NCBI GenBank assembly: GCA_036253035.1
Contig: GCA_036253035.1_4123.1
Length of the DNA: 64,000 nt
Origin: a phage
Strand: one strand, 5' to 3'
Position 1 is the first letter of the stretch. The number at the start of each line of letters is the position of its first letter. The notes beneath the pieces are model-generated. The model made no database searches. It saw nothing but the letters and a program-made list of their open reading frames with translations, and had not been told where the DNA came from. Below, in pieces: positions 14,427-32,352 of this stretch. The translations under genes were made by a program, and so were the position numbers.

Positions 14427-14638
14427 AGTTTGCTCCTGACGTATTTCTCAAGAGATGACAAATACTTTTCCTCATAATACTCCTGATAGTCTGTTCCCAA
14501 GAATGCACCCAAAAGTATTTCATTTTCCAATACCTCGGCTAAGTTTAAATCAGAAGTCTCTTCGTATATTATGAGGATTTCAAGTTGTCTGGCAGCGATG
14601 CGTTCAGTATATTGATATGATTTTTCTAGAATAATCAT
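14423..14638 (-). CDS. LGTNYQE-family small protein
   Basis: Core FLGTDYQEY; near-duplicate of next copy (MIIL...). Confidence 0.65.
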   Translation of the reverse strand: MIILEKSYQYTERIAARQLEILIIYEETSDLNLAEVLENEILLGAFLGTDYQEYYEEKYLSSLEKYVRSKL

Positions 14639-14847
14639 AGTTTACTCTTAATGTGGTTCTGAAGTGCAATAAAGTATTCTCCTACATAATACTCCTGAAA
14701 GTCTGTATCCAAAAATGCACCCATAAGTAAATCCTTCTCCATTACCCTTGATAAGTTAAGATCTGCATTTGAAAGGTATATAAGTAATATTTCAGCCTGG
14801 ACAGATTTAAAACGTTTCTTATATTCTTCAGGTGTTAATATAATCAT
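14635..14847 (-). CDS. LGTNYQE-family small protein
   Basis: Core FLDTDFQEY. Confidence 0.65.
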   Translation of the reverse strand: MIILTPEEYKKRFKSVQAEILLIYLSNADLNLSRVMEKDLLMGAFLDTDFQEYYVGEYFIALQNHIKSKL

Positions 14848-21784: not shown

Positions 21785-21985
21785 TCAAATTGTTTCCCAT
21801 TTCATGTTACCCGCTTTACGCTGTGAAACAGGAATAAACATGTTATTAATGTTACTAATATAACCGACCTGTAAGTCACGCTGTGAACCATACGCCCGAC
21901 TTGCTGCATTTTTAGCACCGCGTTCTGATTTATAAACGCCGCTGGATACTGTAAAGCCTACTACACCGAAAGTAAAATGTTTCAT
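21785..21985 (-). CDS. hypothetical protein (66 aa)
   Basis: ATG with AGAGGA RBS; TTGACA-N16-TATAAT upstream. Confidence 0.6.
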   Translation of the reverse strand: MKHFTFGVVGFTVSSGVYKSERGAKNAASRAYGSQRDLQVGYISNINNMFIPVSQRKAGNMKWETI

Positions 21986-28854: not shown

Positions 28855-28936
28855 TTTCTTTTTCCTCTTAGTTGTCTTGATAAAATCTATTATGCCAGTA
28901 CTATCAATCTATGTCAATAGTACTGTGATAATAATT

Positions 28937-29848: not shown

Positions 29849-29869
29849 AGCCCACTGTATAAGTGGGCT
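29849..29869 (-). terminator. rho-independent terminator (minus strand)
   Basis: AGCCCACTTATACAGTGGGCT followed on minus strand by U6; downstream of gene 29891..30373. Confidence 0.65.
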
Positions 29870-30373: not shown

Positions 30374-30574
30374 TTTATAAATCCTCAATTAAAGTTTAAG
30401 TTAGTTTATCAAAGTTTGTTTGACGTGTCCAGTTTTTCATTCGACTTACTGGCGGTCTACTTAATGTTCCCCGTCTTGATGTAATACATTCTACGCTTTT
30501 CCCTGGTAATGTCAACTACTTTTTTAAAACTATTTTCAAAGTATACCAGTACTACGATACTACAAAAACAAAAA

Positions 30575-30595
30575 AGCCCACTGTATAAGTGGGCT
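30575..30595 (-). terminator. rho-independent terminator (minus strand)
   Basis: Identical hairpin to 29849 copy, U-run on minus strand; downstream of gene 30613..30912. Confidence 0.65.
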
Positions 30596-30612: not shown

Positions 30613-30912
30613 TTATAAACAATTAATTACGCCAGTGAATGTAACTTTCTCTGTATCCATTACAGTGACAGAACCGCGTTTACTTTTTGCATCGTAATAG
30701 ATGGTCGTGCTACCCTGATCATCTTCTTCATGGTACGGGCCATTAGCAAACATTGCAGGGGCCAGTTCCAGGGATTTGGTAACGATCTCAGCCGTTTCCT
30801 CGTTAGTCATTGCAACAGTGCACTGAATGAATTTTTCTTTCGGTACATCAACGGAAGCGTTAACAGCGAAAGAGGAAACAGATAAAGCCAGGGCGATGAT
30901 TGCAGTTTTCAT
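30613..30912 (-). CDS. putative secreted/periplasmic protein with N-terminal signal peptide
   Basis: MKTAIIALALSVSSFAVNA = basic n-region, hydrophobic core, AxA-like cleavage site; TTGATA-N16-TATAAT. Confidence 0.6.
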   Translation of the reverse strand: MKTAIIALALSVSSFAVNASVDVPKEKFIQCTVAMTNEETAEIVTKSLELAPAMFANGPYHEEDDQGSTTIYYDAKSKRGSVTVMDTEKVTFTGVINCL

Positions 30913-31024
30913 TTGTATATCCTTTGTTAGTACTAGGGAGTATTCCCGATTAGATGTAAAACATTATACGCATTTAAAAACTATTATCAAGTACTTTAAT
31001 ATAAAAGTATTTGAAAAAAAAGTC

Positions 31025-31053
31025 TTGACAACTGCATCCAGTACTGGCATAAT
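31025..31053 (+). promoter_or_regulatory. plus-strand sigma70-like promoter (TTGACA-N17-CATAAT)
   Basis: -35 at 31025-31030, -10 at 31048-31053; downstream transcript would carry dyad ACCCACAGGGTGC and end at hairpin 31134-31151. Confidence 0.5.
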
Positions 31054-31059
31054 ACTTAC

Positions 31060-31160
31060 ATAAAGACGAGATAGTCACTAACCCACAGGGTGCATAGATC
31101 CGTCTATTAAATGATTCAGTACTGCAAAATAAAGGGGATCGTTTGATCCCCTCTGTATTA
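31060..31160 (+). ncRNA. candidate small non-coding RNA (~100 nt)
   Basis: Region between plus-strand promoter and hairpin/U-rich tract; no ORF; contains family dyad motif. Confidence 0.3.
31134..31151. terminator. bidirectional terminator hairpin
   Basis: GGGGATCGTTTGATCCCC flanked by A/T-rich tracts on both sides; downstream of minus gene 31158..31379. Confidence 0.5.
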
Positions 31161-31379
31161 CTTAGTAAGATATAAACAAAAATCACCTTTCTTTGCTACG
31201 CCGCCAGTGTAACGCGATGAATAGTTAGAAACGTCTTGCACTTCTGCAATGACGAGCGTATCATCATTTATTTCGTCGCAAAAACATACTGCGGGATCTT
31301 CTACGCCAATATTGTCAGCATGTGCCCGCATAGATTTAACCAGTGCTTCAAGCTGGGAAAGAGTAGTGATATTAGCCAT
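31158..31379 (-). CDS. hypothetical protein (73 aa)
   Basis: ATG with AAGGAG RBS; hairpin; TTGCAA-N16-TATAAT. Confidence 0.6.
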   Translation of the reverse strand: MANITTLSQLEALVKSMRAHADNIGVEDPAVCFCDEINDDTLVIAEVQDVSNYSSRYTGGVAKKGDFCLYLTK

Positions 31380-31466
31380 TGTAAAACTCCTTATTAGTGG
31401 GGAGAACCATTTCTCCCCTTGATGTAAACTATTATACAGTACTGGAAACTAATTGCAAGTACTTTT

Positions 31467-31670
31467 TTAATTTAATTGCTTTAAAACATAATCAAAGACA
31501 CCACGCACATCATTGATCATCGCCTGGCGGTTAGCAGGTAACGCATCAGGATCGCCACTATCCCAGGCATTAATGAAGCCACCTAAATCATGGAATACTT
31601 TATTCCGTAACCCGATCAACTGCAATTCTTTTTCTTCAAGCTCTTTGATACGTTTAATTAAATCACTCAT
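31467..31670 (-). CDS. hypothetical protein (67 aa)
   Basis: Start moved to ATG of MSDLIKRI with GAGGA RBS. Confidence 0.55.
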   Translation of the reverse strand: MSDLIKRIKELEEKELQLIGLRNKVFHDLGGFINAWDSGDPDALPANRQAMINDVRGVFDYVLKQLN

Positions 31671-31687
31671 TAGATAATCCTCAGTAC

Positions 31688-31972
31688 TCAATTGTAAGAT
31701 CCGCAACGGTCGCAGTAGTGCCCGTCCTCGTCATCTTCTACCACTTGCCCGATGAAATGATCTACTTTCGCTTTCAGGTTATTATAATCGTTTTCTACTT
31801 CCTTTAAACGCTTCTGGTAGTATTCCAGTGCTTTAAGATATGCCGCATCAGTAGTTTTCTCCTGCATAGCTAAATTCATGCCACGCGTTTCATCGTACAG
31901 CCAAAAACCATCGGTGCACTCACTTATAGACAATGACTTGCTTAACACATTGTACTTTATTACTTTACTCAT
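31688..31972 (-). CDS. hypothetical protein with C-terminal CxxC (94 aa)
   Basis: ATG with GAGGA RBS; ends ...HYCDRCGSYN. Confidence 0.6.
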   Translation of the reverse strand: MSKVIKYNVLSKSLSISECTDGFWLYDETRGMNLAMQEKTTDAAYLKALEYYQKRLKEVENDYNNLKAKVDHFIGQVVEDDEDGHYCDRCGSYN

Positions 31973-32057
31973 TAGATAATCCTCAGTAAAGGCGGGAACT
32001 ATTCCCGCTCTCGATATAAAGTATTATACGTTAATCTAATTACTTTGCAAGTACTTT

Positions 32058-32294
32058 TTAGTGCTTTTTATAAAACATCTCAGCGGTGATATTTTTACCC
32101 GTTGGTTGTACTTTATCCAGGATCTTTTGGTGTGCACTACGCCCGAAAGAATAAGAACCGTAAACCGTTAGCCAGTAGTCGCCATTTTGGTTTACATGTA
32201 CCGCACAATAGGGAACGCCCCGCGAATCGTCACCAATGAAGTGTGATACTGTACCCGTTACGTTTGGTGTTGTAGTTTTGATTTGTTCGATCAT
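32058..32294 (-). CDS. hypothetical protein (78 aa)
   Basis: Start moved to ATG of MIEQIKTT with AGGAG RBS. Confidence 0.55.
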   Translation of the reverse strand: MIEQIKTTTPNVTGTVSHFIGDDSRGVPYCAVHVNQNGDYWLTVYGSYSFGRSAHQKILDKVQPTGKNITAEMFYKKH

Positions 32295-32352
32295 TTCTCT
32301 TACTCCTGGGATATAGGCGGGAACCATTCCCCGCCATTGATTCAGTACTGAA

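What the first reader, a model, noticed from the sequence alone, without database searches (positions are those of the whole stretch)
30613..30912. Secreted or periplasmic early protein
Canonical Sec-type signal peptide (MKTAIIALALSVSSFAVNA, then SVDVPKEK) on a 99-aa early protein with its own promoter.
Basis: established knowledge. Interest (0 to 1): 0.4.

Follow-up and report, generated by a model that had tools for sequence, protein, structure and literature searches.

The report
Small exported jumbo-phage early protein

Summary
The ORF is real and lies exactly at 30613..30912, on the minus strand. The window is a 121Q-like Asteriusvirus jumbo phage, and the gene is the ortholog of 121Q gp276.

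**Export.** The N-terminus has every feature of a Sec/signal-peptidase-I signal: MK, a 15-residue uncharged core, then VNA|SV. It scores like OmpA, DsbA and PhoA in a rule-based scan. It is the only strong hit among 142 ORFs in the window. All 24 family members examined keep a signal peptide, four of them as lipoprotein signals. All have 2 or 4 cysteines in the mature part.

**Structure and family.** AlphaFold gives a confident six-strand all-beta domain for residues 27-99 and a disordered N-terminus. No Pfam, NCBIfam, PADLOC, PDB or viral-structure relative was found. It is not a T4 Spackle homolog, although one public record names its ortholog "protein spackle".

**Expression.** The gene is a monocistronic unit. 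It has a conserved sigma-70-type promoter, a Shine-Dalgarno sequence and a terminator. In phage G17 it lies inside the long terminal repeat. "Early" is inferred, not measured.

**Function.** Function is unknown. My best guess is an envelope-level superinfection-exclusion or inhibitor role. The family occurs only in phages, prophages and islands.

**Verdict.** Interest is modest.

The parts
30991..31022 (-). A/T-rich (80% AT) UP-element-like stretch upstream of the -35 hexamer
   Evidence: The 40 nt upstream of the -35 are 80% A+T, against 65% for the window.
30963..30990 (-). Sigma-70-type promoter: -35 TTGATA (30990..30985), 16-nt spacer, -10 TATAAT (30968..30963)
   Evidence: 11 of 12 matches. 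The position of both hexamers is conserved in G17, PBECO4, UB and EJP2. Such sites are enriched on the minus strand, 46 against 16.4 expected.
30913..30956 (-). 5' UTR (about 44 nt; the start site is inferred). It holds a small hairpin GGGA-ATAC-TCCC (30947..30936) and the Shine-Dalgarno AAGGA (30924..30920), 7 nt before the ATG.
   Evidence: the SD and the start codon are unpaired in the fold. A hairpin at the same place has a different sequence in G17, PBECO4, UB and EJP2. In the window it is weak (z -0.5).
30856..30912 (-). Codons 1-19: signal peptide MKTAIIALALSVSSFAVNA (n-region MK, h-region T3-V17, c-region V-N-A)
   Evidence: pLDDT is below 50 for residues 1-23. Synonymous divergence is unusually low here.
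30616..30855 (-). Codons 20-99: predicted mature protein of 80 aa (8.8 kDa, pI 4.5, net charge -6), a six-strand beta domain
   Evidence: Block-mean pLDDT is 88-97 for residues 31-99. dN/dS is 0.07-0.16.
30820..30822 (-). Cys31 codon, invariant in the family, in beta strand 1
30703..30732 (-). Residues 61-70, HEEDDQGSTT. This is the family signature (Y)HEEDxxGSTT on the beta3-turn-beta4 hairpin.
30619..30621 (-). Cys98 codon, invariant in the family, at the end of the last strand. It is the presumed disulfide partner of Cys31.
   Evidence: The pairing is inferred; no distance was measured.
30613..30615 (-). Stop codon TAA
30565..30595 (-). Intrinsic terminator: AGCCCAC-TTATACA-GTGGGCT followed by TTTTTTGTTTTT
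   Evidence: It is conserved in G17, PBECO4 and UB and annotated as a terminator in G17.

Best explanation
The gene is a monocistronic unit of a 121Q-like jumbo phage. Host RNA polymerase with sigma-70 probably transcribes it soon after DNA entry. This is inferred from the promoter type and from the gene's position in the terminal repeat.

The 99-aa precursor is taken through the Sec translocon. Signal peptidase I cuts it after Ala19 (VNA|SV). This is inferred from sequence rules and from conservation across the family.

The released protein is 80 aa, acidic (pI 4.5) and all-beta. It stays soluble in the periplasm. Its two invariant cysteines, C31 in the first strand and C98 in the last, are probably joined by DsbA into a disulfide that staples the small sheet or barrel. 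This is also inferred.

The biochemical role is unknown. The most likely role, at about 30%, is protection of the infected or lysogenic cell at the envelope. This could be superinfection exclusion or inhibition of a periplasmic or envelope protein, for example the tail-associated cell-wall hydrolase or the receptor of an incoming phage. Binding would use the conserved acidic hairpin HEEDxxGSTT. That would be the job T4 Spackle or T5 Llp does, done with an unrelated fold.

The confidence figure refers to the export part of this statement.
For: - **Gene is real and constrained:**
- **Signal peptide:** the rule-based score of 4.25 falls within the range of seven known signal peptides. It is the only strong hit in 142 ORFs, and 0.06% of shuffles reach it.
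- **Family-wide export signal:** a profile search of 1.84 billion representatives finds only 15 proteins. All of the small ones have N-terminal signals, four with a lipobox (LSGC or LTGC). Cysteine counts after the signal are always 2 or 4.
- **Structure:** the AlphaFold model has block-mean pLDDT of 88-97 for residues 31-99, six strands, and residues 1-23 disordered.
- **Independent annotation:** the Muenster homolog is annotated as secreted by an independent predictor.
- **Expression signals:** the promoter, SD and terminator are present, and the promoter and terminator are conserved. The ortholog is duplicated in the G17 terminal repeat. The Muenster homolog lies in its 20-kb terminal repeat. 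In phage CBB, RpoD-like promoters are concentrated in the region of short ORFs that its authors suspect to be the early genes, and some lie on its terminal repeat (PMC5259590).
- **Functional guess:** the family is found only in lytic phages, prophages and a small integrative island. In prophages it sits next to other exported small proteins. The mature proteins are acidic, net -1 to -7. T4 Spackle is likewise an early, 75-aa, one-disulfide periplasmic protein, and it binds a basic patch on gp5 lysozyme (PMC7677548).
Against: - No dedicated predictor (SignalP, DeepSig) was run, and there is no experimental evidence of export, cleavage or a disulfide.
- The Cys-Cys distance in the model could not be measured.
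- No expression timing data exist for any Asteriusvirus.
- Nothing ties the protein to a target. There are no matches in PADLOC, Pfam or NCBIfam.
- Known beta-type lysozyme inhibitors (PliC, MliC, Ivy, PliG, PliI) and T5 Llp do not appear among the structural hits.
- In prophages the gene sits on the late-gene side, just before the small terminase. That is not a typical position for a lysogeny-expressed exclusion gene.
Confidence: 0.75

Rival explanations
1. The protein takes part in lysis control rather than exclusion. It would act as a periplasmic antiholin-, spanin- or lysis-inhibition-type factor, functionally like the periplasmic domain of T4 RI.
For: It is a small periplasmic phage protein. 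In the prophage relatives the gene sits just upstream of the small terminase, where lambdoid phages keep their lysis cassette. It is flanked there by other exported or lipoprotein genes.
Against: - No holin, endolysin or spanin family was detected in the neighbours.
- The protein has a cleavable signal, not a signal-anchor-release domain or a transmembrane anchor.
- It lacks the coiled coil of an i-spanin and the short proline-rich lipoprotein form of an o-spanin.
- In the jumbo phage it has a host-type promoter in a region of small early-type genes, not a late promoter.
Confidence: 0.1
2. The N-terminal hydrophobic segment is not cleaved. It anchors the protein in the inner membrane as a signal anchor, or the protein is not exported at all.
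For: No experimental cleavage data exist. My scan is rule-based and not a trained predictor. Two public records (UB, CMSTMSU) annotate a shorter CDS starting at Met35 that lacks the segment.
Against: - The uncharged core is only 15 residues and is followed by a canonical V-N-A|S site.
- Codons 1-34 are conserved under purifying selection and are preceded by AAGGA at the right spacing.
- Every distant homolog has a signal peptide, and some are lipoproteins, which must be exported.
- The paired invariant cysteines fit an oxidising compartment.
Confidence: 0.07
3. It is a host-fitness 'moron' that alters the host cell envelope for the bacterium's benefit, as lambda Bor does for serum resistance. 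It would have no role in phage-phage conflict.
For: Lipoprotein versions occur in E. coli, E. fergusonii and Citrobacter prophages.
Against: Most members are in strictly lytic phages (Asteriusvirus, Alcyoneusvirus, Vequintavirinae), where a long-term host benefit makes little sense. In prophages the gene is co-oriented with the phage lytic genes and has no evident separate promoter.
Confidence: 0.05

Closest known systems
T4 Spackle (gp61.3), periplasmic inhibitor of the gp5 tail lysozyme
   Same: Both come from a myovirus early-type gene. Both precursors are just under 100 aa with a cleavable signal peptide. The mature chains are 75 and 80 aa, each with one cysteine pair, and both are periplasmic (PMC7677548). 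One public record (fEgEco12) names the ortholog 'protein spackle'.
   Different: No sequence relationship exists beyond the signal peptide. The PHROG 1586 match has E=0.029 and covers residues 1-40 only. No PDB sequence hit to Spackle appears even at E up to 10. Spackle is an alpha-helical bundle, whereas this protein is predicted all-beta. A shared function is untested.
Bacterial periplasmic or lipoprotein lysozyme inhibitors (PliC/MliC, Ivy, PliI, PliG)
   Same: They are small beta-rich periplasmic proteins that exist in both soluble and lipoprotein forms. They act through a conserved loop between antiparallel strands (as described in PMC7677548). Here the most conserved motif also sits on a beta hairpin.
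T5 Llp and Cor superinfection-exclusion lipoproteins
   Same: They are small phage-encoded exported proteins, and Llp is disulfide-containing (recalled from memory, not checked here). They are made by lytic phages and prophages to block re-infection at the outer membrane. The prophage relatives in this family are lipoproteins.
   Different: The window protein has no lipobox cysteine. The only similarity is of a prophage homolog's lipoprotein signal to the Cor PHROG, over residues 1-36 at E=8e-4. No structural match to Llp was seen.
PHROG 31669 / 121Q gp276 (uncharacterised)
   Same: The match covers the full length at E=1.7e-62, and identity to gp276 is 99%.
   Different: Nothing differs, but the family has no known function. 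It is annotated only as 'hypothetical protein'.

Membership tests
Sec-dependent, signal-peptidase-I-cleaved signal peptide | Short, positively charged n-region | tested here: met
   The n-region is M-K (net +1) and there are no acidic residues before position 22.
Sec-dependent, signal-peptidase-I-cleaved signal peptide | Uncharged hydrophobic h-region of about 8-15 residues, shorter than a membrane span | tested here: met
   T3-V17 is uncharged, and the best 8-residue Kyte-Doolittle mean is 2.95. Known signal peptides give 2.25-3.02.
Sec-dependent, signal-peptidase-I-cleaved signal peptide | Small neutral residues at -3 and -1, and no proline from -3 to +1 | tested here: met
   The site is V(-3)-N-A(-1)|S(+1). 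It is conserved as VNA|S or ATA|S in all orthologs.
Sec-dependent, signal-peptidase-I-cleaved signal peptide | Actual translocation and cleavage | not testable with these tools
   This needs a reporter fusion, cell fractionation or N-terminal sequencing. A trained predictor (SignalP) is not available here.
Bacterial lipoprotein (signal peptidase II) | Lipobox [LVI][ASTVI][GAS]C at the end of the signal | tested here: not met
   There is no cysteine in residues 1-30. By contrast, homologs P0013, P0020, P0022 and P0023 do have LSGC or LTGC.
Tat signal peptide | Twin-arginine motif in the n-region | tested here: not met
   There is no arginine before residue 79.
T4 Spackle family (PHROG 1586) | Sequence similarity over the mature domain | tested here: not met
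   The match has E=0.029 over residues 1-40 only. No Spackle chain appears in the PDB sequence search at E up to 10.
T4 Spackle family (PHROG 1586) | Compact alpha-helical bundle fold | tested here: not met
PliC/MliC, Ivy, PliI, PliG lysozyme inhibitors | Pfam family match or fold match | tested here: not met
Pfam DUF4949 | Score at or above the gathering threshold (31.1 bits) | tested here: not met
   The score is 15 bits at E=0.028, and only 1 of 17 members matches.
PHROG 31669 (function unknown) | Full-length profile match | tested here: met
   The match is E=1.7e-62 over 1-99/99. The prophage homolog also matches, at E=8e-9.
Known anti-phage defence proteins (PADLOC) | Match to any model | tested here: not met
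   None of 17 members matches at E up to 0.1.

The most novel reading that the evidence does not exclude
The protein founds a new family of phage-encoded periplasmic inhibitors. The family would be a small disulfide-stapled beta protein that exists in soluble and lipoprotein forms. It would be shared by jumbo phages, Vequintavirinae and serine-integrase prophages. It would block an envelope step of competing phages through its conserved acidic HEEDxxGSTT hairpin, for example by inhibiting a tail-associated cell-wall hydrolase or masking a receptor. It would then be a structurally independent analogue of T4 Spackle or T5 Llp.
Probability: 0.25. Interest if true: 0.6.

Novelty: new member of a known kind. 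Interest (0 to 1): 0.3.

Why it matters
Jumbo phages of the 121Q/RaK2 group carry hundreds of small early genes with no known function. This is one of very few whose cellular destination can be read from the sequence. It is the only strong export signal among about 140 ORFs in this 64-kb window.

An early periplasmic protein points to something the phage does to the cell envelope right after infection. Superinfection exclusion is the classic example. The same domain recurs in unrelated lytic phages and in prophages, so it looks like a mobile, reusable module.

If it does block competing phages, it would matter for phage-cocktail design and would add a new fold to the known envelope-level exclusion factors. 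If not, it remains an ordinary secreted hypothetical protein.

Tried and rejected
- **Spackle homology.** One GenBank record and a weak PHROG hit suggest it. I rejected it because the similarity is confined to the signal peptide and the predicted fold is all-beta.
- **Pfam DUF4949.** The score is below threshold and only one member matches.
- **NCBIfam and PADLOC.** Only signal-peptide-driven noise, or nothing.
- **Upstream exported gene in prophages and islands as a tandem paralog.** The alignment looks in register by eye, but hhalign is not significant (E=0.2, and a signal-peptide-only match). I left this as a suggestion.
- **Rfam scan of the locus.** Nothing reached threshold.
- **Literature.** My first search, on Asteriusvirus early genes, was too broad and gave nothing useful. 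No paper mentions AGTACT together with jumbo phages.
- **T5-like context.** I expected one from the wording 'early protein'. The window is instead a 121Q-like jumbo phage.

Full report
**What is there**

The window carries an ATG-to-TAA ORF of 99 codons at 30613..30912 on the minus strand.

The surrounding 2 kb is 98.4% identical to Escherichia phage 121Q (Asteriusvirus, 348.5 kb) and 84-88% identical to about 37 other Asteriusvirus genomes. The ORF is the ortholog of 121Q gp276, annotated 'hypothetical protein', at 99% protein identity. So the context is a giant myovirus of the 121Q/PBECO4 group. The gene sits in a long array of small same-strand genes of unknown function.

**Is it a real gene?**

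Orthologs at 68-97% identity occur throughout the genus. Pairwise dN/dS is 0.08-0.17. The protein matches PHROG 31669 over its full length at E=1.7e-62.

A Shine-Dalgarno AAGGA lies 7 nt before the ATG and is unpaired in the predicted 5' UTR fold. Two public records (UB, CMSTMSU) annotate a truncated CDS from Met35. The conserved, constrained codons 1-34 and the ribosome-binding site argue for the long form.

**The signal peptide**

SignalP was not available, so I wrote a rule-based scan. It tests the von Heijne n/h/c regions and the -3/-1 rule, and requires no proline around the site.

- It recovers seven textbook signal peptides (OmpA, PhoA, MalE, TEM, DsbA, LamB, PelB) with scores of 3.55-4.62.
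- The query scores 4.25, with cleavage predicted after Ala19 (V-N-A|S).
- Of 142 non-overlapping ORFs in the window only two pass. The other is weak, at 2.89.
- Only 16 of 28,400 shuffled proteins reach 4.25.
- There is no lipobox cysteine and no twin arginine.
- The uncharged core is 15 residues, too short for a stable membrane span.

**Evolutionary support for export**

A word-indexed search found only the seven close orthologs. A profile search of 1.84 billion representative proteins found 15 hits in all.

The distant relatives are 26-38% identical and 96-153 aa long. All carry N-terminal signal peptides, and four of them carry lipoprotein signals (LSGC or LTGC). The mature chains always contain two or four cysteines.

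Three positions are invariant in the mature domain across the 17-sequence alignment: Cys31, Gly94 and Cys98. The signature (Y)HEEDxxGSTT...G.(I/V)T(I/V)MD...V..(S/T)G...C is strongly conserved.

A family that swaps between signal-peptidase-I and lipoprotein signals while keeping paired cysteines is very likely extracytoplasmic. Independently, the homolog in Klebsiella phage Muenster was deposited as 'putative secreted protein' on the basis of an InterPro signal-peptide prediction.

**Structure**

AlphaFold2 with the eight-sequence alignment gives block-mean pLDDT of 88-97 for residues 31-99. The model has six antiparallel strands (29-37, 43-50, 60-64, 67-74, 79-85, 90-98) and one short helix. 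Residues 1-23 fall below pLDDT 50.

Cys31 lies in the first strand and Cys98 at the end of the last. A disulfide between them would close the sheet. The HEED-GSTT motif forms the beta3-turn-beta4 hairpin.

Fold searches found no relative:
- Foldseek against the PDB gives nothing better than E=0.014 with TM below 0.36.
- BFVD returns the 121Q protein itself, three further uncharacterised viral proteins at E of 0.001 or better, and weaker uncharacterised matches.
- Pfam, NCBIfam and PADLOC give nothing above noise.

The mature protein is 8.8 kDa with pI 4.5 and net charge -6. All family members examined are net acidic.

**Expression signals**

On the coding strand the gene has these parts in order:
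- an 80% A+T UP-like stretch
- TTGATA-16-TATAAT at 30990..30963
- a 5' UTR of about 44 nt
- the ORF
- a terminator hairpin with a T-run at 30595..30565

The two promoter hexamers keep their positions in G17, PBECO4, UB and EJP2, although the sequence around them has diverged. A 5' UTR hairpin is present in all five with different sequences. The terminator is conserved in four of the five and is annotated in G17.

Strong sigma-70-like sites number 46 on the minus (coding) strand. First-order Markov random sequences give 16.4 +/- 3.9, and the plus strand has 16. Fourteen of the minus-strand sites are perfect 12/12 matches. The gene therefore has its own host-type promoter, as do many of its neighbours.

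In G17, whose record includes both terminal repeats, the ortholog occurs twice, at 14451-14750 and at 364600-364899. It therefore lies inside the roughly 20.7-kb direct terminal repeat. The Muenster homolog lies in that phage's 20,030-bp terminal repeat.

For the related phage CBB, the authors found RpoD-like promoters concentrated in the region of short ORFs. They proposed that this region holds the early genes, with some of the promoters lying on the terminal repeat (PMC5259590). 'Early' is therefore a reasonable inference, but it has not been measured for any Asteriusvirus.

**Where the family occurs**

The family was found in these places:
- Asteriusvirus (E. coli and Salmonella)
- Alcyoneusvirus/RaK2-like phages (Muenster, phiKp_21)
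- Salmonella jumbo phages (Munch, SE_PL, PHA46) and Erwinia phage Hallingskeid
- Vequintavirinae (A73, W70, A5-4) and other phages of about 141 kb (SSBI34, LTH01)
- as a lipoprotein or secreted protein, in a family of serine-recombinase prophages of E. coli, E. fergusonii and Citrobacter, just upstream of the small terminase
- in an island of about 8 kb next to conflict-system domains

In lytic phages it always sits in arrays of small hypothetical genes.

In prophages and the island, another small exported protein lies immediately upstream, abutting or overlapping it, with the same Cys...Cys layout. Homology between the two is not statistically supported. No member was seen outside mobile elements.

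**How it most likely works**

These steps are supported by sequence rules and conservation:
1. Synthesis as a 99-aa precursor.
2. Sec translocation.
3. Signal-peptidase-I cleavage after Ala19.
4. Release of a soluble 80-aa beta protein into the periplasm.

These steps are inferred:
1. Oxidation of Cys31-Cys98 by DsbA.
2. Transcription by host RNA polymerase in the first minutes of infection.

The function is a guess, at about 0.25-0.3. I propose an envelope-level conflict role: superinfection exclusion, or inhibition of a periplasmic or envelope protein, through the conserved acidic hairpin. This is by analogy with T4 Spackle. Spackle is early, 75 aa when mature, has one disulfide, and binds a basic patch on gp5 lysozyme (PMC7677548). 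The analogy extends to T5 Llp and Cor.

Membership in those families is rejected. Spackle is an alpha-helical bundle, and the sequence similarity stops at the signal peptide. The label 'protein spackle' on the fEgEco12 ortholog is probably an annotation artefact.

The rivals are a lysis-control role, an uncleaved membrane anchor, and a host-fitness moron. None is excluded, and each has less support.

**Verdict**

The protein is a new, uncharacterised member of a familiar kind of thing: a small phage-encoded periplasmic protein. It would become interesting only if a target or an exclusion phenotype were found.

Noticed in passing
whole window, densest from about 16000 to 40000: The palindromic hexamer AGTACT occurs 237 times, against about 22 expected from base composition. 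CAGTACTG occurs 49 times, against fewer than 1 expected. AGTACT and CAGTAC are by far the most over-represented hexamers in the window, at 11-12 times expectation, with the next at 5.7 times. 98 of the sites touch the 16% of sequence that is intergenic, and the remaining 139 are inside ORFs. In intergenic regions the motif sits between stop codons and terminators, upstream of UP-like elements, and directly against several -35 hexamers ('cacagtactaTTGACA'). The function is unknown; it could be an operator, a processing site, or a modification or packaging motif. No paper was found.
   Followed up: partly
window 31025..31165 (+): A strong sigma-70-like site lies on the opposite (plus) strand: TTGACA-17-(TG)CATAAT at 31025..31053. 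It points into the 245-bp spacer upstream of the gene. The roughly 100-nt stretch that follows ends at the GGGGATC-GTTT-GATCCCC hairpin and folds better than shuffles (-29 kcal/mol, z -3.3). It may be a small divergent RNA, or it may be chance. There is no Rfam match.
   Followed up: partly
window 30856..30912 (-) compared with 30616..30855 (-): The 19 signal-peptide codons are almost identical at the DNA level between lineages (dS about 0.15). The mature-protein codons are saturated (dS about 2), and the promoter and 5' UTR are also more diverged. This suggests either an RNA-level constraint on the signal-coding stretch or a recombination joint.
   Followed up: partly
window about 31000..32057: In G17, PBECO4, UB and EJP2 the gene directly follows the ortholog of the window ORF 32058..32327. 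In the window and in 121Q, about 1.1 kb carrying three extra small genes lies in between (31158..31379, 31467..31706, 31688..31972; 121Q genes 275-273). This is a lineage-specific insertion or deletion in the early-gene array.
   Followed up: partly
window 30575..30595 (-) and 29849..29869 (-): Two terminator hairpins with identical sequence (AGCCCACTTATACAGTGGGCT) follow consecutive genes. Several promoters also share identical upstream sequence, for example at 28917, 28622 and 25430. The intergenic regulatory modules appear to be repeated cassettes.
   Followed up: no
window-wide, minus strand: Strong sigma-70 consensus sites number 46 on the coding strand, against 16 on the other strand and 16.4 +/- 3.9 in random sequence. 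Fourteen are perfect TTGACA-N16/17-TATAAT matches. Host-type promoters are unusually dense, at nearly one per small gene between about 15 and 33 kb.
   Followed up: partly
L002 7049..8459; L008 7624..8462; L018 6699..7375: In prophages and an island, the family gene is preceded by an abutting or overlapping gene for another small exported protein, secreted or lipoprotein, with one Cys near the start and one near the end of the mature chain. In L002 a third exported lipoprotein lies further upstream. These may be tandem paralogs or a heteromeric partner, but hhalign does not support homology.
   Followed up: partly
public records: PP777464.1 (fEgEco12), MH383160.1 (UB), MH494197.1 (CMSTMSU): The annotation of orthologs is inconsistent. 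One is named 'protein spackle', which is probably wrong. Two are annotated as truncated CDSs starting at Met35, which removes the signal peptide.
   Followed up: yes
window 21785..21985 (-): A 66-aa ORF has a weak signal-peptide or membrane-anchor-like N-terminus (MKHFTFGVVGFTVSS...). It is the only other ORF in the window that passes the rule-based scan, with a score of 2.89.
   Followed up: no
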